A stretch of 64,000 nt of DNA from Escherichia phage A4, in the sequence record ON286972, one strand, 5' to 3'. Below the pieces are notes generated by a model. That model was given only the letters and a program-made list of their open reading frames with translations, ran no database searches and was not told the origin of the DNA. How positions within the stretch are numbered: position 1 is the first letter of the stretch; each line of letters opens with the position of its first letter. Below, one piece after another: positions 45,801 to 56,769 of the stretch. A program made the translations under genes and the position numbers.

Positions 45801-46061
45801 ATGCAAAACCCTGAATTGAAAATGTTTACACAAATCCGTCTTGCTCGTGTTGAACATGACACTAACTATGTACTGAACGATGGTCCTCCACAACGCGTTG
45901 AAGTTGGTTATATTGACGTTGATAATTCACAATCTCTTCTGATTACCATTGGTTCTAACTCTTACAGTGTTGCTACACTGGAGAGTGTATTGTCCCTGGC
46001 ACAATCCGCAAGGATTGCCCGTAACGCTCTTATGAACTGTGATGAACCTGATAATGAATGA
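45801..46061 (+). CDS. hypothetical protein (86 aa)
   Basis: ORF track; GGAG RBS. Confidence 0.5.
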   Translation: MQNPELKMFTQIRLARVEHDTNYVLNDGPPQRVEVGYIDVDNSQSLLITIGSNSYSVATLESVLSLAQSARIARNALMNCDEPDNE

Positions 46062-46392
46062 TTATATGTATGAATTAAACCTGGTATCGTTTATCGTATC
46101 AGGACTAGGATGGATGTACTATATGCTTGGGTATATTTTATTATTCTTCCGATACAATACATTCTACAAACGCTATTGGGATGATGCACCAATTCACTTC
46201 TTCGCATTTGTATTCTTAACTATGGCAGTGGGTGAAGTACTGCTAACTGGTATCCAAAGTACTGGTGGAATGATGTGCACACTAACAACATTCTTTGTTG
46301 TTTTTGGGACTGTAGTTTGGTTTTTCGCGTGGGGACTCTTCTCTTTGATTATGAAACTTGAGAAACTCCGAGACAAATTACCAGAGCGTTGA
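46039..46392 (+). CDS. integral membrane protein
   Basis: ORF track; several hydrophobic helices; start uncertain. Confidence 0.45.
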   Translation: MMNLIMNDYMYELNLVSFIVSGLGWMYYMLGYILLFFRYNTFYKRYWDDAPIHFFAFVFLTMAVGEVLLTGIQSTGGMMCTLTTFFVVFGTVVWFFAWGLFSLIMKLEKLRDKLPER

Positions 46393-47256: not shown

Positions 47257-47508
47257 ATGAAAATATTATTAGTTCTAATACTACTAATTGTTTTACCATT
47301 TACTTTAGTATCCCCTGAACTTGCATGGAATGTGTTTGTGTACTTAGTATGTACTATTGTAGTAAATGGTATCTTGTTCTTAGTTCTATTCATAAATGGA
47401 ATAGGACACGGTGGAGGATGGACCAGTACTGCTGATATTGTACATAAAACCACTATGTCTTTATTTGTAGTGTGGAATTTATTCTGGACTTGGTTTGTGT
47501 TCTTCTAA
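47257..47508 (+). CDS. small integral membrane protein (83 aa)
   Basis: ORF track; GAGG RBS. Confidence 0.45.
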   Translation: MKILLVLILLIVLPFTLVSPELAWNVFVYLVCTIVVNGILFLVLFINGIGHGGGWTSTADIVHKTTMSLFVVWNLFWTWFVFF

Positions 47509-48704: not shown

Positions 48705-48944
48705 ATGAAACTATCTTTTATACGTTTAGCAGAATTCTTCGGTACTGATATAATTACTTTACAACAAATTGCAGACAATACTTCATTAAGTACACAAGAA
48801 GTACTTGACTTAGATGTGATAGAGTGTGATAATACTTCTATCGATTATAAAGAAGGTCTTGTCGAAAAAGATAAGATTCAGGCTAAGATTAATGGTGCTG
48901 GACGGGTTCAGTACTGGAAAGGAGTTTTAAGTCATGCCAGCTAA
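48705..48944 (+). CDS. hypothetical protein (79 aa)
   Basis: ORF track; AGAGGTGA RBS. Confidence 0.45.
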   Translation: MKLSFIRLAEFFGTDIITLQQIADNTSLSTQEVLDLDVIECDNTSIDYKEGLVEKDKIQAKINGAGRVQYWKGVLSHAS

Positions 48945-50631
48945 ATTAACCCCTAAACAAGCAAAAGAAAAATTCAACAAAAAAGTATTAGAACATAACG
49001 TTCCAATTGAAGCTGATTATAGTAAGTATGAAAATGCCAAATTAAAAAACATCCAAGTAGTTTGCAATGATGTATTAAAACACAAATCAGGCATATCACA
49101 AATATATCTTATGGATCACGCAAACCTCACACACCCATCCAAAAAATTTGGTTGTCCTGAATGTGAAGACTGGTATAATGGTCATGCTAAAAGTTTAGAT
49201 ATTTTAATTGTTAGGGAAAGAATTAATTCTTGGATTAGTACTTATGGCGGGATTATTGATACGGTTAGTGGTGAAGTTGAAGTTTATAAAAATAATTCAT
49301 CCAAAATACCATATATTTGTAAAAATGGAACTAAAAAAACGCTTACTATTTCTTCACTTGGCGATGAAATCGGTTGTAATTGTTCTAAATGTAAAGCTGA
49401 ATTAATATCAGAAATCGAAGATAACAATGAATATACATCCATGACTACTGTTGATGATTGTGTTACAATTTCCCATTTTAAATTTGGGGATGATGTTGCA
49501 TTCTCGTGGATTTCACCATTGGAAATGAAAAAACATGGTTACTGTCTTGCCGAAAAAATGAAAGAAAAAGCATTGTCGGTTGGTAAAAATATTATTGGAT
49601 ATGCAATATCATCTCTTAGTGAATGGAAAAATGAAAAAACTCCTGTAATAACCGAACACGAAGGAGTATTATATCGTATTTCCAAAGCATCATATTTGAT
49701 CAATAATAATATAGTACATAGACCACATTATACAAAAAATAATTTTTTATATTATTTTTACAAATGTTCACCTAACAATCAACTTATTACACCAATCCTA
49801 ATACCTGATGATATTGGTACAAAAAAGAAAATTAAAGTATGTTATAAATCATGTGGGTGTGAATATGATATATCTGTGGACGTTATAATGAACAGAAATT
49901 TAAAAACTTGTGGAAACTGTAAAAATATAGATACTAATAAATTTATAGAACAGTGCTTGGAGTTCACTTCAAGTGGAGATTATATCTATGATAGAGTAAA
50001 CTATATAAATCAAAGTACACCTGTAACTATAGTTCATAAAATTTACGGCGAATTCAAAAGTACACCACAAAATCACTTAATACATTTAAAAAACGGTTTG
50101 AAATATGATACAGCTAACTTTAAAATAAAAAATTTAACTCAATTTAAAATTAAAGCAAATGAAGTTCATAATAACTTATATAATTATGATAAAGTTGATT
50201 ATGTAAATTCTTCAACGAAAGTATTAATAACTCATCCAGTATATGGAGACTTTTGGCAAACTCCAGCAAGTCACCTTGGTGGGTGTGGTCATCCACTTGC
50301 GGCTGGTCATTCTCAGCAATATGCATATATTCATAATATTTTGGATGGTGTTTTATCTGTAGCATTGAAATATGGGATTGAAAAGCAGAAAGGTAAGAGG
50401 GTGATGCAGCAAAATAAAAAATCCATGTTTCAAGTTCAATCTCTGTATACTTATTTTTTTCCATCTGTATACGAATGTAAGCAAGCTGAAAAAGAATGTA
50501 AGAAACTATTTGGTAAAGGTGTTTTAACTAAACAAGAAATGCCAGACGGGTATACTGAAACAACTACACCAAACAACATAGATAAAATTATTGCCATCTA
50601 TGAAAAATGGGGTGGGGTGAAACAAAACTAA
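48934..50631 (+). CDS. Cys-rich protein with three internal repeats (565 aa)
   Basis: ORF track; CPECEDW, CNCSKC, CGCEYD, CGNCKN pairs; repeat Y.YD.V.Y.N.ST.V.I.H..YG.F..TP..HL three times. Confidence 0.6.
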   Translation: MPAKLTPKQAKEKFNKKVLEHNVPIEADYSKYENAKLKNIQVVCNDVLKHKSGISQIYLMDHANLTHPSKKFGCPECEDWYNGHAKSLDILIVRERINSWISTYGGIIDTVSGEVEVYKNNSSKIPYICKNGTKKTLTISSLGDEIGCNCSKCKAELISEIEDNNEYTSMTTVDDCVTISHFKFGDDVAFSWISPLEMKKHGYCLAEKMKEKALSVGKNIIGYAISSLSEWKNEKTPVITEHEGVLYRISKASYLINNNIVHRPHYTKNNFLYYFYKCSPNNQLITPILIPDDIGTKKKIKVCYKSCGCEYDISVDVIMNRNLKTCGNCKNIDTNKFIEQCLEFTSSGDYIYDRVNYINQSTPVTIVHKIYGEFKSTPQNHLIHLKNGLKYDTANFKIKNLTQFKIKANEVHNNLYNYDKVDYVNSSTKVLITHPVYGDFWQTPASHLGGCGHPLAAGHSQQYAYIHNILDGVLSVALKYGIEKQKGKRVMQQNKKSMFQVQSLYTYFFPSVYECKQAEKECKKLFGKGVLTKQEMPDGYTETTTPNNIDKIIAIYEKWGGVKQN

Positions 50632-50637
50632 ACAAAA

Positions 50638-50671
50638 GGGTTGACTTCGGTCAGCCCTTTTTGCTATAATT
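50638..50671 (+). promoter_or_regulatory. terminator/promoter cassette
   Basis: GGGTTGAC-TTCG-GTCAGCCC, TTTTT, TATAAT, TATTTCATC. Confidence 0.6.
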
Positions 50672-50698: not shown

Positions 50699-51469
50699 AT
50701 GACCAGAGAAGCACGCAGCATTCAAATTCAGAAAAACTTCAACTCCATGATGGTTGCTCTTGAGTGTTTGCTCGATGATAGCAGTACTGTAAAAAGTATG
50801 GTTGTCAGCGGTGCTCCTGGTGTTGGTAAGACTTACACCCTCTCTAAACGCCTCCAGAAAGCACATGACGCGGCAGAATGGAACGTAGCTACCATCAGTG
50901 GTAAAATGACCACTCTGGCTCTGTACGAAGTTCTGTACAAGAATCGTCATAGCACCAACGTGTTAGTACTGGATGATATGGACAGCATCTTTGATTCAGA
51001 AGACGGTATGAACCTGCTCAAAGCAGTACTGGATAGTGGCAAGCGTACTGTTTCTTATATGACTAGCTCGAAGTATCTGAGCAGCAACGGTATCCCTAAC
51101 AGCTTTGATTTTAATGGTCGCATCGTATTCATTACTAACAAAGATTTAGCACTGAATGCTAAAGCTAAAACTAAAATGTCTGCTCACTATGCTGCTCTTA
51201 TGTCTCGCTCTGTATACGTTGACTTACAGATCCAGACCAAAAGCGATATCATGATTCACATTGAGAACGTGATGAACCAGACCAACATTCTGGAATCTAA
51301 GGGTATTAACAGTAATGGTAGTAAAGCAATCCTGAACTGGATGTTGAAGCACGAAGATTCACTTCGTTCACCTTCACTGCGTATGCCACTGTTGATTTCG
51401 GCAGTATATAACAACAACCCATACGATTGGGAAGAGCAATGTGAAAACTTGTTCCTGGAGAAAAATTAA
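50699..51469 (+). CDS. P-loop ATPase (AAA-like)
   Basis: Walker A GAPGVGKT, Walker B VLVLDDMD; GC-richer codon usage than neighbours. Confidence 0.7.
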   Translation: MTREARSIQIQKNFNSMMVALECLLDDSSTVKSMVVSGAPGVGKTYTLSKRLQKAHDAAEWNVATISGKMTTLALYEVLYKNRHSTNVLVLDDMDSIFDSEDGMNLLKAVLDSGKRTVSYMTSSKYLSSNGIPNSFDFNGRIVFITNKDLALNAKAKTKMSAHYAALMSRSVYVDLQIQTKSDIMIHIENVMNQTNILESKGINSNGSKAILNWMLKHEDSLRSPSLRMPLLISAVYNNNPYDWEEQCENLFLEKN

Positions 51470-51688
51470 TTGATAACACATAACATCGATAAGGTCATGT
51501 TATTATATGCATGTATTAACATGATTGTCGTTTTAGTTAAAGTTTATGGATGGTTTCATACACTTGATATTGATACTGAAAAGGAGTATAATCCTCAAGA
51601 AGCATCTCTTGGATTAAAAATTATTGTTTTAATTAGCGTAGTATCCGTATACATGGTATTACTATCAACTATGATTAAGTTCACTTAA
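51470..51688 (+). CDS. small integral membrane protein (72 aa)
   Basis: ORF track; two TM helices. Confidence 0.5.
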   Translation: MITHNIDKVMLLYACINMIVVLVKVYGWFHTLDIDTEKEYNPQEASLGLKIIVLISVVSVYMVLLSTMIKFT

Positions 51689-51698
51689 CGAGGAACAT

Positions 51699-52031
51699 AT
51701 GATTAATTTATTTTCAACTGAGGTTATGATTAAAATTACATTAGTATACATATGTCTATTCGTATACTACCACGCTCTCATCGGAATCTTGTGGTTCTTT
51801 AAGAAAGGTCGTATTCTTGAGAAATTGTACCCAGACTATATGATATTGTATACAATTGTCCAGGGTGTAGGAATAGTACTGGGAATTCTAGTGCACTTGA
51901 TATATTTGTTTGAACCACACCTTCCGTGTATTACACAATACATTGTATTCGGAACTACTATTATGTGGCTTGTAATGATGGGTGTGTATGGTCTGTATTT
52001 GTACAGGAAACGTATAGTGGGAGATTTCTAA
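51699..52031 (+). CDS. small integral membrane protein (110 aa)
   Basis: ORF track; multiple TM helices. Confidence 0.5.
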   Translation: MINLFSTEVMIKITLVYICLFVYYHALIGILWFFKKGRILEKLYPDYMILYTIVQGVGIVLGILVHLIYLFEPHLPCITQYIVFGTTIMWLVMMGVYGLYLYRKRIVGDF

Positions 52032-52384
52032 TGCAAGAGGTTATTAAATGGTTGACAACCAGTGATATTGCTAGTACACTGAACTATGTACTCATTATCT
52101 TATATCCGTTTTTGATGGTTCTAAACTTCATTGGATGGTATTTCAAACGTCCAATTTACTACAAGATTAATAATTCAGAGTACTATGAAAGTGTTGTAAT
52201 TGCAACCTCAATCACGTATACTATGGGTGCGGTTCTTACAGTCATAGGATTAGGTCAAGGTGATAATCTTAACTTTATGCTATGTACCTTTGTTATGATA
52301 TGTATTCCAACACTAATTGTAATTCTATCGAATATTGTGTGGAAAAAAATGTTATTTGCACGCAACAAAATACCGGAGGCATAA
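52031..52384 (+). CDS. small integral membrane protein (117 aa)
   Basis: Track ORF 51926..52384 trimmed to ATG 52031 after GGGAG; contains WYFKRPIYYKI. Confidence 0.5.
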   Translation: MQEVIKWLTTSDIASTLNYVLIILYPFLMVLNFIGWYFKRPIYYKINNSEYYESVVIATSITYTMGAVLTVIGLGQGDNLNFMLCTFVMICIPTLIVILSNIVWKKMLFARNKIPEA

Positions 52385-52719
52385 TGGAGTACTTTATCAG
52401 TTTACTACCGTGGTACTTGAAAGTAAGTACAATTTACTACATCATTTCCGCTGGGTTTTATTTCTTGATGTGGTTCTTTAAACGTCCAATCAGTGAATTC
52501 ATCGATAATCATATGATGAGTTTTAAACTTCACTGCTGGTTTTGGTCATCGTCAGTGATGCCATTCATCCATTACGGAATTATCAGTACTGGTAAACGTT
52601 CTAATGGTGAAATCATTTCCTTGGGTTTTTACTGGATATCGACTATTGTTTACATTGGTGTGCTTTTGTATCCATTTGTAGTTAAACTACGAAACTCTAT
52701 CCCAGATCACAGGAAATAA
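52384..52719 (+). CDS. small integral membrane protein (111 aa), paralog of preceding gene
   Basis: Track ORF 52282..52719 trimmed to ATG 52384 after GGAGG; contains WFFKRPISEFI. Confidence 0.5.
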   Translation: MEYFISLLPWYLKVSTIYYIISAGFYFLMWFFKRPISEFIDNHMMSFKLHCWFWSSSVMPFIHYGIISTGKRSNGEIISLGFYWISTIVYIGVLLYPFVVKLRNSIPDHRK

Positions 52720-52720
52720 T

Positions 52721-53041
52721 ATGAAGATTCAATTTATTCTTTTCACAGTAAGTGCATTCTACTTTTGGGTTTGCTGGATTGGTTTTCTCTTTGCACTAAA
52801 ACCATTTGACTTCTATGCAAAGCAGTGTAAAAATGCTGCTGTTGGTAATGTAGCTTTTACATTGCTTAGTACATTATGGGTAGTACTGATTATATTCAAT
52901 CCACCTGATAATGATTTGGAAATGTCATTGTGTACATTATTTGCAGGACTGTGTGTATTCGCAGCATTCTGTAGTTATATTGGAAAGTTATGTTCTTTGG
53001 TATCAAATTTCCATCGTAAACAAAAAGATAAGAGGGTATAA
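52721..53041 (+). CDS. small integral membrane protein (106 aa)
   Basis: ORF track. Confidence 0.5.
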   Translation: MKIQFILFTVSAFYFWVCWIGFLFALKPFDFYAKQCKNAAVGNVAFTLLSTLWVVLIIFNPPDNDLEMSLCTLFAGLCVFAAFCSYIGKLCSLVSNFHRKQKDKRV

Positions 53042-53424
53042 TGTACACAACAATATATGTTATTCTTAATATCCTAAGTGCATGTCTAACAATAGGTGCA
53101 TTAATATACATTGGAAAGTTCTTTTGTGTAAAGTTCGTCGAAGATGTGTATGAGGATATTGAATCCGACTACGAATCTAAGTGCTTCTTCCATGTTGGAT
53201 ATATCATTTGCTTAGTAACCACTATCTTCACATGGATTGTATACGTATTCGGGATTGGAATCACTTCAATTGGTGAACCAGTACTGTGCATTATTGGATT
53301 AGTGTTTTCTTCAATATTCGGGTTATTGTTCATGATTATTCTTATGTATAATTTAATCTGTACTGCTATTGTTCCTTTCTTTTATGAAATTCACAATAAC
53401 ATTAAACGTAAGAAACGAGGTTAA
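53041..53424 (+). CDS. small integral membrane protein (127 aa)
   Basis: ORF track. Confidence 0.5.
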   Translation: MYTTIYVILNILSACLTIGALIYIGKFFCVKFVEDVYEDIESDYESKCFFHVGYIICLVTTIFTWIVYVFGIGITSIGEPVLCIIGLVFSSIFGLLFMIILMYNLICTAIVPFFYEIHNNIKRKKRG

Positions 53425-53426
53425 TT

Positions 53427-53780
53427 ATGTTTTCTCCTGCTGGACAAGTTATATTCATGGTATGTACACTGGTATTCTTTATGTTGTCTGTACTATTTGT
53501 GATGAAATTCTTTCACATGAAACCATTCAGTACTTGGTATGATAATATTGTGTACTATATTGGTAATGCTATAACACTCTTTTCAGTTGCATACTATTTC
53601 GGTTATTTTGCAATGCTATTTGGGTTATTACTTGAAGCTCGTGCATTGCTTGTAGCTGGTATGGTGGCAGATTTAATGTGTCTAACACTAGCTTGTATTG
53701 GATTTACTGTATGTATGTCGTTAACCATTTTTGACAAATTATGTAAACTACACAAACGTTTAGGTGAGAGGATGAAATAA
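53427..53780 (+). CDS. small integral membrane protein (117 aa)
   Basis: ORF track. Confidence 0.5.
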   Translation: MFSPAGQVIFMVCTLVFFMLSVLFVMKFFHMKPFSTWYDNIVYYIGNAITLFSVAYYFGYFAMLFGLLLEARALLVAGMVADLMCLTLACIGFTVCMSLTIFDKLCKLHKRLGERMK

Positions 53781-54163
53781 TGACTTACCGTGATTACTTT
53801 TGTATTTTTGAAATTGCAGTATTCGCTTTAGGTTCAGTCTGGTTACTTCTATACTACTTCTGTATTAATCCAGTATTCAATTGGGTTCGTCGTGCTGAAC
53901 AAAGTAGTGCTGGACAAATAGCAGTTGTTATGGGTATGACATATTATATGTTCGCCGTGGCTTCTGTTGTTATTGAAGTAATATTTGGTGGCATGAATGG
54001 TGATGATGGGGCAACGTTCTATGGATTCGTAACATTCTTTAGTGTGCTGATTCCGTGTGGTGCTCTTATTATTACTGCGTTCTATTGGCTATATCGTGGT
54101 GTTAAGAAGCTGGAATCAATTCACGTAGATATGCGTTCAAAACGAATGGGGATTGACAAATAA
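53780..54163 (+). CDS. small integral membrane protein (127 aa)
   Basis: ORF track. Confidence 0.5.
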   Translation: MTYRDYFCIFEIAVFALGSVWLLLYYFCINPVFNWVRRAEQSSAGQIAVVMGMTYYMFAVASVVIEVIFGGMNGDDGATFYGFVTFFSVLIPCGALIITAFYWLYRGVKKLESIHVDMRSKRMGIDK

Positions 54164-54714
54164 TGAAACGAAGTTCTAATGTCATTCGCGAACGATTTCG
54201 TAAAGTAAAAACTATTAAGTACGGGACTATTGCTCTTGTACTTAGTAGTACTTTTATTATGACAGGATGTGAACGCTCTGAAGATATTTCTGTATATCAG
54301 AATGTGGACCAATGTAAAAGAAGTGGTAGCAATCCGGTACAGTGTGAAGATGATTATAAAAAAGCACTAACTGAATCGGAAAAGGTAGCACCAAAATATA
54401 GTTCACAAAGTGATTGCTCTAGTGATTTTGGTAATCAGTGTCAACAGCATAGCTCTGGATTCTTTTGGATGCCAATTATGAGTGGATTCCATAGTAGTGG
54501 TAATGGGTTTGCTAGTCAACCACTATACAACTCTAAAGGGAACTACTATGATGCTGGTGGTAACTCCTACGGTAGCAGTACTGCAAAAGGTACAACACGT
54601 ACTGTATCAAGTTCCGCATTAGCTCCAAAACCTCCTACAACGACCACAATCACCCGCAATGGGTTTGGGTCTTCAGTAGCCAGAAGTGCCGCTCACACGA
54701 GTTCTGGTGGATAA
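54163..54714 (+). CDS. lipoprotein (lipobox IMTGC), Ser/Gly/Thr-rich C-terminus
   Basis: N-terminus MKRSSNVIRERFRKVKTIKYGTIALVLSSTFIMTGC; ATGA overlap with upstream gene. Confidence 0.6.
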   Translation: MKRSSNVIRERFRKVKTIKYGTIALVLSSTFIMTGCERSEDISVYQNVDQCKRSGSNPVQCEDDYKKALTESEKVAPKYSSQSDCSSDFGNQCQQHSSGFFWMPIMSGFHSSGNGFASQPLYNSKGNYYDAGGNSYGSSTAKGTTRTVSSSALAPKPPTTTTITRNGFGSSVARSAAHTSSGG

Positions 54715-54715
54715 T

Positions 54716-54745
54716 AAAAAAGCCCACATTAAGTGGGCTTTTTGT
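54716..54745. terminator. bidirectional intrinsic terminator between convergent gene blocks
   Basis: AGCCCAC-ATTAA-GTGGGCT hairpin flanked by AAAAA and TTTTGTT. Confidence 0.6.
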
Positions 54746-56769
54746 TATTTGTGTTTTATGTGTAAAGTGTCTAATATTGTATTGAACAATGATTTAGCAG
54801 AAATCATGATTACTTGATCAAAATCTTTAGTATAAGAAATATTAGCAGTACTGGAAGAATCTTTCACCTCATCCGGTAATGCATCAAACTCTTCTTTTTC
54901 CATAATCTTTTCAAGTTCTTCACGAGAAATGGCTTTTACGTTTTCAATAGTCCTTAGTTGTATATTATAATCTTTATAATACGAAACTAAGTTCGTTGCG
55001 TATGAACCATCTTTAGATGCTGTTCCAGTAAAATCATAACATCCTGTATCAGTACTAACCCAATCGATTTTCCCTGAACTACCACTATATACACCTTTGT
55101 TGAACTTAATGTTAACAACATCACCAATAGTTTTCAATATACCACCTTTACATTCATTAAATGCGTTTAATTGATAACTTGTAGTCATATAGAATTTCGG
55201 TTCTAATGTAACAGTATCACCTACAGTTGCTTTCATATCAGAAACACTTAAGAACAATTCATTAAATCCTTTTGAATAAGTCTTGGTAATTGTTGTTCCA
55301 TCCCTGTTAGTTACTGTGTATTCTAAGTCCAATTCACAAATACTATTCAATGATAAGTAAGGGATATCAAATTTATCAGTACTAGCATCATAAGGACATC
55401 TTGAGGATGGTAGTATACCAGTAGGGTTTGGTACGTATTGAACTTTTGTTAACTCATACCCGCTTGCATTCGCTGGTGTAACTGTAATAGACGGTGTAGA
55501 TATTCCTTTCATTCCACAGAAGTATATGTTATCTGGAAAATCATTTATTACGAAGTCAGTGACAGGAATATCATAAGTATCTTTATCAGTCCAATTAAGA
55601 ACAACATTAGAACTGGTTGGATCAACAATATGTTCACTAGAACCACAGAAATATACTGATTTGGTATTAGTAATCATTAGTAATGTTTTGGATGATGAGT
55701 TCAATTCAAGAACATCTTTCACTTCAAGACCAGATGGTAATGTCAATGGTAACTTCGTAAATGATGTTAAATCTTGTTCATCTTTAACACCACTAGTCCC
55801 CGCCGGAAACTTACCTGAACCATAGAAAACACCTTTATTCGTCATGAAATACATGAACGGGGTTGATGTTCCTTTGTCAAATAGTTGAATGTCATCACAT
55901 GTTAAACCATCAGGTAAATCCACTTTAGATGGAGTTCTATAAACACCAGGCTTAATACCACCTTCACCATTACTTACATCACCTAGTACATATAAATCTT
56001 TACCTAGTTTCAAGAACATTGATTTATTTTTAGCACACAAGAATGTATCATATGATTTATCATCAATTGGTAGCTTGGTATATTCGGTGTATGTAGGCAT
56101 TGAATCATCAATCCACGAACTATCACCACTAATGTAAATGTGATTGTTTCTGTCAATATAATATGAATACACATCAGTACTGTTCATATATAAAGCATTT
56201 AGTGCATTTGTTTTCACTAAGTGATTGAACTTAAGAACTTGTTTTCCATCGTACTTATGGGAGTTGACACCAATATCACCATTTAGGCTACTACCAATTG
56301 AATATATATGACCACGTGGTAATAGAACTTGAACACCACTTTTGGTTAAATTATATTTGGAGTGCAAGAGATCGTTATATACAACTCTAACTTTCTTAAA
56401 GATATCAGTACATTCAATCCACGATTTAGATGGTGTACCATCCATTCCTATTATTGCCGGATCACCATAATAATAAGCTTTATTTTCATATGATATTTTA
56501 AAAGATGATTTACCATCTTTTGTATTAGCACTGAAGTACACATCTTTACTATCTTTAATTGGATAAGTACTATTCTCTACAAAAGTATTATATGAGATAT
56601 CGTTGTTAGCACTATTAAGAACAAAAGAAGTAGATGTACTATTGGACTTATAGACTGCTACGGAAGATGTATCACTGAAATCAATTTTAGTGAACGTATC
56701 TTTGTATGTTTCGTTTAATAATCCTACATAAAAAACATCAGTGCCATCCATCAGTAACGAATATAGCAT
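54745..56769 (-). CDS. RCC1-like repeat protein, possibly the C-terminal part of a frameshifted gene continuing from 56738..57682
   Basis: ORF track; no RBS before its ATG; frame opens 29 nt upstream of the stop of the preceding minus-strand ORF. Confidence 0.55.
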   Translation of the reverse strand: MLYSLLMDGTDVFYVGLLNETYKDTFTKIDFSDTSSVAVYKSNSTSTSFVLNSANNDISYNTFVENSTYPIKDSKDVYFSANTKDGKSSFKISYENKAYYYGDPAIIGMDGTPSKSWIECTDIFKKVRVVYNDLLHSKYNLTKSGVQVLLPRGHIYSIGSSLNGDIGVNSHKYDGKQVLKFNHLVKTNALNALYMNSTDVYSYYIDRNNHIYISGDSSWIDDSMPTYTEYTKLPIDDKSYDTFLCAKNKSMFLKLGKDLYVLGDVSNGEGGIKPGVYRTPSKVDLPDGLTCDDIQLFDKGTSTPFMYFMTNKGVFYGSGKFPAGTSGVKDEQDLTSFTKLPLTLPSGLEVKDVLELNSSSKTLLMITNTKSVYFCGSSEHIVDPTSSNVVLNWTDKDTYDIPVTDFVINDFPDNIYFCGMKGISTPSITVTPANASGYELTKVQYVPNPTGILPSSRCPYDASTDKFDIPYLSLNSICELDLEYTVTNRDGTTITKTYSKGFNELFLSVSDMKATVGDTVTLEPKFYMTTSYQLNAFNECKGGILKTIGDVVNIKFNKGVYSGSSGKIDWVSTDTGCYDFTGTASKDGSYATNLVSYYKDYNIQLRTIENVKAISREELEKIMEKEEFDALPDEVKDSSSTANISYTKDFDQVIMISAKSLFNTILDTLHIKHK

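What the first reader, a model, noticed from the sequence alone, without database searches (positions are those of the whole stretch)
50699..54714. P-loop ATPase followed by eight consecutive small multi-TM proteins and a lipoprotein, abutting the propeller-gene array
After the Walker A/B ATPase (50699..51469) come eight 72-127 aa hydrophobic proteins (51470..54163), at least two of them paralogous (WYFKRPIYYKI versus WFFKRPISEFI), then a lipoprotein with lipobox IMTGC and a Ser/Gly-rich tail (54163..54714). The block is convergent with the propeller-gene array across a bidirectional terminator. Small membrane proteins and lipoproteins next to receptor-binding genes are typical of superinfection-exclusion or immunity functions in other phages, but nothing here is homologous to a characterised one.
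Basis: inference. Interest (0 to 1): 0.6.

Follow-up and report, generated by a model that had tools for sequence, protein, structure and literature searches.

The report
Early membrane-protein operon of jumbo phage
This is a probably early-expressed operon shared by RaK2/121Q-type giant phages: it encodes an AAA+ ATPase, a tandem family of small three-helix inner-membrane proteins and, here, a phage copy of the host envelope-stress lipoprotein YgiB; its function is untested.

Summary
All ten genes are present, tightly packed, and bracketed by a sigma70-type promoter (50641-50670) and a bidirectional terminator (54717-54743).

The window is a divergent Asteriusvirus-like (121Q/PBECO4) jumbo phage. 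Seven of the eight small proteins (m2-m8), plus a ninth copy at 46054-46392, belong to one family of about 100-130 aa. Each has three TM helices, N-out/C-in by the positive-inside rule. An exhaustive search found only 111 clusters, and every one traced lies in RaK2-like phages or about 350-kb contigs.

The layout "ATPase, then 6-11 paralogues" recurs in Asterius-, Alcyoneus- and Mimasvirus and in metagenomic lineages. The paralogues are under purifying selection but are mosaic, with single-gene allele swaps between near-identical phages.

It is an accessory cargo, already noted in other large enterobacterial phages.

Nothing matches Imm, Sp, Llp, holin, DUF350 or PADLOC models. Superinfection exclusion or envelope conditioning is the most plausible reading (about 0.35) but is untested. 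The block is a conserved, uncharacterised module of moderate interest.

The parts
50638..50670 (+). Hairpin (upstream terminator) overlapping a sigma70-type promoter: GGGTTGACTTCGGTCAGCCCTTTTTgCTATAAT.
   Evidence: The promoter scan scores 11/12 with an extended -10. TTGAC and TAnnAT are invariant upstream of the ATPase gene in 7 phage lineages. The element occurs 6 times on the + strand of the window against 0 expected.
50699..51469 (+). Stand-alone AAA+ ATPase, 256 aa (phrog_1250).
51497..51688 (+). m1: 63-aa protein with 2 TM helices (72 aa if the TTG at 51470 is the start).
   Evidence: It is conserved at 90.5% aa in L019 with 7 synonymous and 4 non-synonymous changes. The family HMM does not detect it.
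51699..52031 (+). m2: 3-TM family member, orthologue group g2 (121Q gp224/225).
   Evidence: This slot holds a 41%-identical allele in an otherwise 96-100% identical relative.
52031..52384 (+). m3: 3-TM family member, group g3 (121Q gp226; Muenster 554/555).
52384..52719 (+). m4: 3-TM family member, group g4 (121Q gp227; Muenster 557).
52721..53041 (+). m5: 3-TM family member, group g5 (121Q gp228+229, split there; Muenster 558).
53041..53424 (+). m6: 3-TM family member, group g6 (121Q gp230; Muenster 559).
53427..53780 (+). m7: 3-TM family member, group g7 (121Q gp231).
53780..54163 (+). m8: 3-TM family member, group g8 (121Q gp232; Muenster 560).
54163..54714 (+). YgiB-like (DUF1190) lipoprotein, 183 aa. 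The lipobox Cys is Cys36, and the +2 residue is Glu.
   Evidence: Pfam PF06693 E 4e-32. NCBIfam PRK11653 scores 154 bits. phrog_3739. Identity is 52% to E. coli YgiB and 58% to the Muenster protein.
54717..54743 (.). Bidirectional intrinsic terminator between the operon and the converging RCC1-like gene (54745-56769, - strand).
46054..46392 (+). Dispersed ninth member of the 3-TM family, outside the array.
   Evidence: hmmsearch with the family profile gives E 8e-11 over the full length. The sequence carries LLFFRY... and ...KLRDKLPER.

Best explanation
The block is one transcription unit, conserved in RaK2/121Q-type jumbo phages and read from a host-type (sigma70) promoter, so it is probably expressed early.

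It encodes:
- (i) a stand-alone AAA+ ATPase;
- (ii) a 2-TM mini-protein plus seven tandem paralogues of a phage-specific family of 106-127-aa inner-membrane proteins, each with three TM helices, a periplasmic N-terminus and a basic cytoplasmic C-tail;
- (iii) a phage copy of the host lipoprotein YgiB.

Proposed mechanism:
- Soon after infection the paralogues insert into the host inner membrane, probably as a mixed assembly.
- The only family-wide conserved elements lie at the cytoplasmic face: [IVL]-G-[WK]-[FY]-F after TM1, and an amphipathic basic L-x-x-[LFI]-[HR]-x-[KN]-[IL]-x-x-[KR][KR]-G tail. Through these the paralogues could meet a common partner, for which the upstream ATPase is the obvious candidate.
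- Together with the lipoprotein they re-condition the envelope of the infected cell. They close it to DNA entry by competing phages (superinfection exclusion) and buffer envelope stress.

Shown: gene structure, one paralogous family, topology by the positive-inside rule, promoter and terminator, conservation across lineages, purifying selection, mosaic exchange, YgiB homology.

Inferred: expression time, localisation, complex formation, ATPase partnership, exclusion.
For: **One transcription unit with a host-type promoter**
- A conserved promoter starts the unit and a bidirectional terminator ends it.
- The same promoter cassette heads five other small-gene units upstream, including denV.

**One family with a consistent topology**
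- Profile-profile links and shared motifs join m2-m8.
- Charge distribution indicates N-out/C-in. This agrees with the TMHMM notes in the Muenster record.
- In a search of 1.84 billion representatives only 111 clusters match, all 56-130 aa (108 of them 97-130). Those traced lie in RaK2-like phages or about 350-kb contigs.

**Conserved layout**
- The layout "ATPase then array" is kept in 121Q, PBECO4, Turkey3, Muenster, CBB and four metagenomic lineages.

**Real, constrained genes**
- dN/dS is 0.10-0.48, against 0.04 for the ATPase.

**Conflict-like mosaicism**
- Between the window and 121Q, synonymous divergence jumps from 0.33 in the ATPase to saturation in the array.
- The m2 slot is replaced by a 41%-identical allele in a relative whose other array genes are 90-100% identical in aa.
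- In that relative, m4 plus m5 show 1 synonymous and 10 non-synonymous changes, against 14 and 0 in the ATPase.

**Other context**
- No array or ATPase protein appears in the phAPEC6 virion proteome, although the neighbouring RCC1-like proteins do.
- Asteriusviruses are enriched among "persistent virulent phages" found in bacterial assemblies. A close relative of this phage is a 357,761-bp contig in an E. coli assembly.
- YgiB is a Cpx-regulon envelope-stress gene.
Against: - There is no sequence relationship to any known exclusion protein or defence-related model.
- The conserved parts of the family face the cytoplasm. The periplasmic loops are only 4-11 aa and are variable. This is not obviously suited to contacting an incoming phage.
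- The paralogues are old, separately conserved orthologue groups under purifying selection, not fast-turnover duplicates.
- Much of the surrounding early region is equally patchy: only 36-46% aligns by megablast to known relatives. Mosaicism is therefore not specific to this block.
- The lipoprotein keeps every residue that is invariant among the six aligned DUF1190 proteins, which include E. coli YgiB and YjfM. This suggests a retained host-type function rather than receptor masking.
- The lipoprotein is dispensable for the array, being absent in 121Q, Turkey3 and L016.
- More distant ATPase homologues (30-40% identical) sit beside RecA, helicase or other genes, not membrane arrays. The ATPase may therefore be an unrelated neighbour.
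- Promoter timing is predicted, not measured.
Confidence: 0.35

Rival explanations
1. Envelope maintenance or host takeover rather than exclusion. The 3-TM proteins would modulate host inner-membrane functions (transport, proton motive force, stress signalling). The YgiB copy would supplement the host Cpx-type envelope-stress response. Together they would keep the cell productive through the long, often persistent, jumbo-phage infection.
For: - The lipoprotein is 52% identical to YgiB and keeps all invariant residues.
- ygiB is Cpx-regulated, and its mutants are sensitive to stress.
- YgiB-like genes occur in 144 records of large enterobacterial myoviruses in unrelated genomic contexts.
- The conserved motifs of the 3-TM family are cytoplasmic.
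- The promoter is of the predicted early class.
- The group has a persistent lifestyle.
Against: - A housekeeping-type role does not explain the single-gene allele swaps or the excess of non-synonymous change in m4 and m5.
- RaK2-like phages encode no YgiC-type ligase partner.
- The biochemical function of YgiB is itself unknown.
Confidence: 0.25
2. Membrane platform for the AAA+ ATPase. The paralogues would form a hetero-oligomeric inner-membrane complex whose basic C-tails dock the ATPase. This would tether a phage process (DNA replication or entry, or assembly) to the membrane.
For: - The ATPase-then-array order is invariant across all RaK2-like lineages examined.
- They form one operon here.
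- The RaK2-like ATPases lack the roughly 76-aa N-terminal extension present in the wider family.
- Each paralogue is kept as a separate orthologue group, as expected for distinct subunits.
- The shared motifs lie on the cytoplasmic side.
Against: - The only evidence is synteny.
- The ATPase is nearly invariant while the array is swapped wholesale and gene by gene. Copy number also varies from 6 to 11. Both fit poorly with a fixed-stoichiometry complex.
Confidence: 0.15
3. Counter-defence. The paralogues would neutralise membrane-acting host abortive-infection effectors or membrane-bound defence sensors, each paralogue with its own target.
For: - The genes carry a predicted early promoter, are variable, and are exchanged gene by gene.
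- There are several distinct conserved paralogues.
- The proteins are predicted to sit in the inner membrane.
Against: - There is no homology to known anti-defence proteins, and the PADLOC scan was empty.
- No host-specific presence or absence pattern was examined.
Confidence: 0.1
4. Lysis control. The 3-TM proteins would be class-I-holin-like (three TM helices, N-out/C-in, charged C-tail), acting as holins or antiholins, and the lipoprotein would be spanin-like.
For: - Size, topology and the basic tail fit the generic description of a holin.
- Single weak hits to two holin Pfam families were seen among 110 family members.
Against: - The promoter is sigma70-type and predicted early, and there is no endolysin in the unit.
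- A holin and a lysozyme are annotated elsewhere in the Asteriusvirus fEgEco12, while its array genes are annotated "hypothetical".
- The lipoprotein is a housekeeping-type YgiB homologue, and no i-spanin-like partner is present.
- The holin Pfam hits are 1 of 110 members each, at E 6e-4 and 9e-3.
Confidence: 0.05

Closest known systems
Orthologous block in published RaK2-like jumbo phages (121Q gp223-232; PBECO4 AGC34984-34978; Muenster gp551-562; CBB gp538-547)
   Same: The gene order is the same: AAA+ ATPase, then 6-11 small 3-TM proteins, then in Muenster and CBB a DUF1190 lipoprotein. The promoter position is the same, and in most of these phages the block converges on propeller genes.
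   Different: The ATPase here is 98.8% identical to that of 121Q, but the array is only 24-67% identical to any published one. The lipoprotein, absent from Asteriusvirus proper, is present here. None of these genes has a described function; the records call them hypothetical or putative membrane proteins.
E. coli YgiB / YjfM (DUF1190 lipoproteins, tolC-ygiBC and yjfIJKLMC operons)
   Same: The phage lipoprotein is 52% identical to YgiB and 32% to YjfM. It shares the lipobox Cys, four further invariant Cys, a basic RFRK n-region and a C-terminal TxTRxGFG...GG motif. Like YgiB it has Glu at +2.
   Different: The phage protein lacks the Gln/Ala-rich insert of YgiB. No YgiC/YjfC peptide-spermidine ligase gene accompanies it in RaK2-like phages. 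The neighbouring membrane proteins are not DUF350/YjfL. It scores below the NCBIfam equivalog cut-off.
T4 Imm and Sp; T5 Llp and phi80/N15 Cor (phage superinfection-exclusion membrane proteins and lipoproteins)
   Same: These are small inner-membrane proteins and/or a lipoprotein made by a virulent phage, expressed early, and in T5 placed beside a receptor-binding gene. This description of the known systems comes from my own knowledge.
   Different: There is no detectable sequence relationship. Here there is a 7-11-member paralogous array with an AAA+ ATPase, and the lipoprotein is a homologue of a host housekeeping protein rather than an orphan.
Class I holins (e.g. lambda S105)
   Same: They have three TM helices, N-out/C-in topology, about 100 aa and a charged C-terminal tail (properties of holins from my own knowledge; topology here).
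   Different: The promoter here is predicted early, there is no adjacent endolysin, and there are multiple conserved paralogues. No holin Pfam family is matched above noise.

Membership tests
DUF1190 / YgiB family (Pfam PF06693) | Match to the family profile above the curated threshold | tested here: met
   PF06693 gives E 4.1e-32 and 112.2 bits, against a cut-off of 22.
DUF1190 / YgiB family (Pfam PF06693) | Lipoprotein signal peptide with a lipobox Cys, plus the conserved Cys pairs and C-terminal motif | tested here: met
   C36, C51, C61, C85, C93, R165, G167, G169 and the terminal GG are invariant in the alignment with E. coli YgiB, YjfM and three phage homologues.
DUF1190 / YgiB family (Pfam PF06693) | Equivalog of E. 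coli YgiB (NCBIfam PRK11653 cut-off) | tested here: not met
   The score is 154.1 bits, against a curated cut-off of 223. It is a family member, but not an equivalog.
DUF1190 / YgiB family (Pfam PF06693) | Genetic pairing with a YgiC/YjfC-type ATP-grasp peptide-spermidine ligase | tested here: not met
   tblastn of E. coli YgiC against 50,697 phage records finds no hit in Escherichia, Klebsiella, Cronobacter, Erwinia or Pectobacterium jumbo phages. No such ORF lies in the operon.
DUF350 / YjfL family (membrane partner of DUF1190 in yjf operons) | Profile similarity of the 3-TM proteins to DUF350 | tested here: not met
   m8 gives E 0.0036, below the cut-off. Only 3 of 110 family members hit weakly. 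hhalign of the family profile against E. coli YjfL gives probability 0.3%.
Known superinfection-exclusion proteins (T4 Imm, T4 Sp, T5 Llp, Cor, SieA/B) | Sequence or profile similarity to the family | tested here: not met
   No such Pfam family appears at E<=1 for any of the ten proteins, or at E<=0.01 for 110 family members. All PHROG hits are to families of unknown function or to a generic "membrane protein" family.
Known superinfection-exclusion proteins (T4 Imm, T4 Sp, T5 Llp, Cor, SieA/B) | Protection of the expressing cell against superinfecting phage | not testable with these tools
   This needs plating and DNA-entry assays.
Class I holins | Small protein with three TM helices, N-out/C-in topology and a charged C-terminal tail | tested here: met
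   Supported by hydropathy and positive-inside counts.
Class I holins | Late expression and linkage to an endolysin; match to a holin family | tested here: not met
   The promoter is sigma70-type and predicted early. The unit contains no endolysin. Holin Pfam families are hit by 1 of 110 members each, at E 6e-4 and 9e-3. In fEgEco12 the holin is annotated elsewhere.
AAA+ ATPases | Walker A and B, sensor and arginine residues, and an alpha/beta core plus helical lid fold | tested here: met
RaK2-like 3-TM paralogue family (unnamed; PHROGs 19454, 19046, 27396, 33258, 26405, 27618) | About 100-130 aa, three TM helices, G-[WK]-[FY]-F after TM1, and a basic [HR]-x-[KN]-[IL]-x-x-[KR][KR]-G tail | tested here: met
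   m2-m8 and the ORF at 46054-46392 match the family HMM at E 4e-8 to 4e-23. The motifs are mapped. m1 does not match.

The most novel reading that the evidence does not exclude
The 7-11 paralogous 3-TM proteins are the distinct subunits of a previously unrecognised hetero-oligomeric inner-membrane machine of RaK2-like jumbo phages. In this reading their conserved cytoplasmic tails dock the invariant stand-alone AAA+ ATPase, which acts as its switch. The machine would gate the infected cell's inner membrane, for example by controlling DNA entry or exclusion, and individual subunits would be swapped between phages to change specificity.
Probability: 0.12. Interest if true: 0.75.

Novelty: new variant of a known kind. 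Interest (0 to 1): 0.4.

Why it matters
- RaK2/121Q-type jumbo phages are candidates for therapy and are frequently found persisting inside bacterial isolates, yet more than 80% of their genes have no known function.
- This block is one of their most stereotyped units. It has a fixed promoter, an invariant AAA+ ATPase, a phage-specific family of inner-membrane proteins that is exchanged gene by gene, and in some lineages a captured host envelope-stress lipoprotein.
- If it controls exclusion or envelope integrity, it would bear on how these phages coexist with hosts and with competing phages. It would also matter for phage cocktail design.
- The phage YgiB copies offer a handle on the still unknown function of the host YgiB/YjfM family.
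- As it stands, the result is a well-delimited, conserved, uncharacterised module. No new mechanism has been demonstrated.

Tried and rejected
- **DUF350/YjfL link.** I considered that the array might be an expanded yjfL next to a yjfM-like gene. The hits were weak and hhalign rejected the link at probability 0.3%.
- **Phage-encoded YgiC/YjfC partner.** None exists in RaK2-like phages.
- **ATPase guilt by association outside the group.** Homologues at 30-40% identity sit beside RecA, DEAD helicase, GP88 and other genes, not membrane arrays.
- **Library scans.** Pfam, NCBIfam, PHROGs and PADLOC gave no functional name for the small proteins.
- **Holin and spanin reading.** Rejected on promoter class, on the absence of an endolysin or i-spanin, and on the YgiB homology.
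- **Source of the window.** There was no match in complete E. coli genomes or in plasmids. Only metagenome contigs identical to the window and a 98%-identical 357.8-kb contig in a draft E. coli assembly were found.
- **Gene-wide positive selection.** Not supported, since dN/dS is below 1. The 1:10 synonymous to non-synonymous count in m4 plus m5 at short distance is too small to distinguish relaxed from diversifying selection.
- **Literature.** No paper describing the array was found.

Full report
**1. What is there**

- Ten + strand genes fill 50699-54714 almost without gaps.
- Nine have a Shine-Dalgarno-like sequence. Five gene junctions in the array are one-base stop/start overlaps, TAATG.
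- The first gene encodes a 256-aa P-loop protein with Walker A GAPGVGKT and Walker B VLVLDD.
- Eight small hydrophobic proteins follow. m1 is more probably 63 aa from the ATG at 51497, as independent gene callers have it, than 72 aa from the TTG at 51470.
- m2-m8 are 106-127 aa.
- The last gene encodes a 183-aa protein with a lipobox (IMTGC) and a Ser/Gly-rich tail.
- The run of TM codons shows in the raw composition: AT skew is -0.153 at 52-54 kb and mostly positive upstream.
- A hairpin with A- and T-tracts on either side (54717-54743) separates the block from the converging 674-aa RCC1-like gene.

**2. Where it comes from**

- The window is a divergent relative of the Asteriusvirus jumbo coliphages 121Q, PBECO4 and phAPEC6.
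- Upstream, only 36-46% of 24.7 kb aligns by megablast, at 85-88% identity.
- DNA identical to the window occurs in metagenome contigs.
- A 98%-identical relative is a 357,761-bp contig in the draft E. coli assembly GCA_012813795.2.
- Nothing matches in complete E. coli genomes or in plasmids.
- Asteriusviruses are reported to be strongly enriched among "persistent virulent phages" recovered from bacterial assemblies.

**3. One transcription unit, probably early**

- Just upstream of the ATPase gene lies TTGACT-18-TGcTATAAT, which scores 11/12.
- The -35 element is embedded in a hairpin followed by T5, which is a terminator for the preceding unit.
- TTGAC and TAnnAT are invariant at the same distance from the ATG in the window, 121Q, PBECO4, Turkey3, Muenster, CBB and a metagenomic lineage, while the surrounding sequence is not conserved.
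- The 25-nt core GGGTTGACTTCGGTCAGCCCTTTTT occurs six times on the + strand of the window against 0 expected. Five copies carry a TATAAT, and four of those the leader cATTTCATC, ahead of a gene start. One of those genes is denV.
- I infer transcription by host RNA polymerase early in infection. This has not been measured.

**4. The small proteins are one family**

- m2-m8 align over their whole length with one another and with their counterparts in other phages.
- Profile-profile comparison links the orthologue groups: g3-g4 96%, g3-g5 87%, g6-g8 82%, g3-CBB group 84%, g6-g7 53%.
- A profile of 33 members was searched against 1.84 billion representative proteins. It found only 111 clusters, 108 of them 97-130 aa long.
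- The clusters traced come from RaK2-like phages such as Serratia phage BF, from about 350-kb contigs, or from short metagenome contigs with the same gene order.
- No Pfam family is matched above noise.
- Column conservation over 110 members shows only two strongly conserved blocks:
  - [IVL]-G-[WK]-[FY]-F at the end of TM1, with Phe in 99 of 110 members;
  - the C-terminal L-x-x-[LFI]-[HR]-x-[KN]-[IL]-x-x-[KR][KR]-G.
- K+R counts are 0-2 for the N-terminus plus loop 2, and 6-8 for loop 1 plus the tail, in every one of m2-m8.
- By the positive-inside rule the proteins are N-out/C-in. This agrees with the TMHMM notes in the Muenster record. Both conserved blocks therefore lie at the cytoplasmic face, and the periplasmic loop is 4-11 aa.
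- The family HMM also finds a ninth, dispersed member at 46054-46392 (E 8e-11). It does not recognise m1.

**5. Evolution of the array**

- Each of m2-m8 has its own orthologue in 121Q or Turkey3, and most have one in Muenster, in nearly the same order. The paralogues therefore predate the split of these genera.
- Between 121Q and Turkey3, dN/dS is 0.10-0.48 for the array genes and 0.04 for the ATPase. The array genes are constrained but looser.
- Between the window and 121Q, the ATPase is 98.8% identical in aa with dS 0.33. The adjoining array genes are 24-67% identical with saturated dS. A recombination boundary therefore lies at the 3' end of the ATPase gene.
- Between the window and its 98%-identical relative:
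  - the ATPase has 14 synonymous and 0 non-synonymous changes;
  - m3-m8 are 95-100% identical in aa;
  - m4 plus m5 have 1 synonymous and 10 non-synonymous changes;
  - the m2 slot holds a 41%-identical allele.
- The propeller gene nearest the terminator also differs between the two phages.
- Copy number ranges from about 6 (CBB) to 11 (L016).

**6. The lipoprotein**

- It hits Pfam DUF1190 at E 4e-32 and PHROG 3739.
- It is 58% identical to the Muenster/RaK2 protein that follows the same array. It is 52% identical to E. coli YgiB and 32% to YjfM.
- The lipobox Cys, four further Cys and the C-terminal TxTRxGFG...GG motif are invariant.
- YgiB is encoded in the tolC-ygiBC operon. It is predicted to be an outer-membrane lipoprotein of unknown function.
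- ygiB is Cpx-regulated and is needed for growth under envelope or oxidative stress in C. rodentium.
- In bacteria, DUF1190 pairs with a YgiC/YjfC peptide-spermidine ligase and, in yjf operons, with DUF350. Neither partner is present here.
- YgiB-like genes occur in 144 phage records of large enterobacterial myoviruses, in unrelated contexts. These include RaK2-like phages, Agricanvirus, Moonvirus, Vequintavirinae and phiKp24-like phages. The Moon genome announcement already noted one, with its role described as unknown.
- Within the RaK2-like group the lipoprotein is optional. It is present in the window, Muenster, CBB and L020, and absent in 121Q, PBECO4, Turkey3 and L016.

**7. The ATPase**

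- The family is PHROG 1250 (E 1e-103). The RaK2-like version lacks the first 76 or so positions of the profile.
- With a 60-sequence alignment, AF2 gives pLDDT 93.
- More distant homologues in other large phages lie beside RecA, a DEAD helicase or other genes, not membrane arrays.
- Its functional link to the array rests only on invariant adjacency and co-transcription within the RaK2-like group.

**8. What it most likely does**

- Homology assigns no function, so the argument is from anatomy and context. The relevant features are these:
  - The promoter is predicted to be early.
  - The products are not found in virions. phAPEC6 MS detects the RCC1-like neighbours but none of these proteins.
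  - The proteins are predicted to sit in the inner membrane.
  - The genes are exchanged one at a time.
  - The block sits at a variable junction next to virion propeller genes.
  - The phage group persists in its hosts.
- These features best fit an envelope-conditioning or exclusion role, to which I give 0.35.
- The main rival, at 0.25, is envelope maintenance or host takeover without exclusion. It is favoured by the conservative YgiB copy and by the cytoplasm-facing motifs.
- A membrane platform for the ATPase (0.15), counter-defence (0.10) and lysis control (0.05) are less supported.
- Points against exclusion:
  - there is no similarity to Imm, Sp, Llp or Cor;
  - periplasmic exposure is tiny;
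  - the orthologue groups are old;
  - the whole early region is mosaic.

**9. Novelty**

- The genes are already present, as "hypothetical" or "putative membrane protein", in more than 40 GenBank phage records. The YgiB-like lipoprotein has been remarked on before.
- Three things appear not to have been described, in the literature I could search:
  - the recognition of the array as one phage-specific family with defined motifs and topology;
  - its fixed coupling to an AAA+ ATPase and a conserved promoter;
  - its slot-wise allele exchange.
- I rate it a new variant of a known kind, namely a block of early small membrane proteins and morons in a virulent phage, and of moderate interest.

Noticed in passing
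window 46054-46392 (+): This is a ninth member of the 3-TM family, about 5 kb upstream of the array (family HMM E 8e-11). It has the LLFFRY motif and a KLRDKLPER tail. The family is therefore not confined to the tandem array.
   Followed up: partly
window 32907, 41160, 45451, 47917, 48646, 50638 (+): There are six copies of a stereotyped cassette, aaaaaGGGTTGACTTCGGTCAGCCCTTTTT(gCTATAATcATTTCATC), against 0 expected by chance. It is a terminator hairpin whose stem contains the -35 of a consensus sigma70 promoter. Its reverse strand explains the recurring spurious peptide AKRADRSQP in minus-strand ORFs.
   Followed up: partly
window 51699-52031 versus L019 1543-1881 and L018: In a relative whose flanking array genes are 90-100% identical in aa, the m2 slot carries a 41%-identical allele. 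The first RCC1-like gene after the terminator also differs: 674 aa here, against 182 plus 307 aa there.
   Followed up: partly
L018 (GCA_012813795.2, AATHYQ020000001.1) and L008-L011: A close relative of this phage is a 357,761-bp contig in a draft E. coli isolate assembly, and DNA identical to the window occurs in metagenomes. This fits reports that Asteriusviruses persist in bacterial isolates.
   Followed up: partly
window 54268-54276 (residues after lipobox Cys36); Muenster, CBB, Deimos-Minion, P0233-P0238: The window lipoprotein has Glu at +2, as E. coli YgiB does, which predicts outer-membrane sorting. Most phage homologues have Asp at +2 followed by Asp, Glu or Thr. By the E. coli Lol-avoidance rule that predicts retention in the inner membrane.
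   Followed up: partly
L001 6985-7300 (121Q gp228 and gp229): The orthologue of m5 is split into two overlapping ORFs in 121Q. This could be a frameshift, a sequencing error or a pseudogene. It is intact in Turkey3 and in the window.
   Followed up: no
window 48934-50631 (+): This 565-aa Cys-rich protein lies directly upstream. Its counterpart in L018 hits DUF723. It aligns with the close relative only over its last third, at 75% nt identity, so the highly conserved ATPase gene is an island between two variable segments.
   Followed up: no
PV764938.1 (Sinorhizobium phage Phosso) 386647-388344: In this 469-kb phage the DUF1190 gene lies directly beside a glutathionylspermidine-synthase-family (YgiC-like) gene. 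The bacterial ygiB-ygiC pair therefore seems to have been captured whole there, unlike in enterobacterial phages.
   Followed up: no
L003 7597-8229 (Muenster gp563): In the RaK2-like Klebsiella phage a ClpP-family protease gene (Pfam E 7e-23) directly follows the YgiB-like lipoprotein, in the same orientation.
   Followed up: no
L001 8450-9109 (121Q gp233); L020 4010-6225: An unrelated family of about 110-220-aa proteins with no Pfam match, sharing an FQYSL motif, occupies the end of the operon in 121Q in place of the lipoprotein. In L020 it forms its own tandem run after the lipoprotein.
   Followed up: no
window 47257-47508 (+): This is another small (83-aa) hydrophobic ORF just upstream of denV. 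It matches neither the family HMM nor any Pfam family.
   Followed up: no
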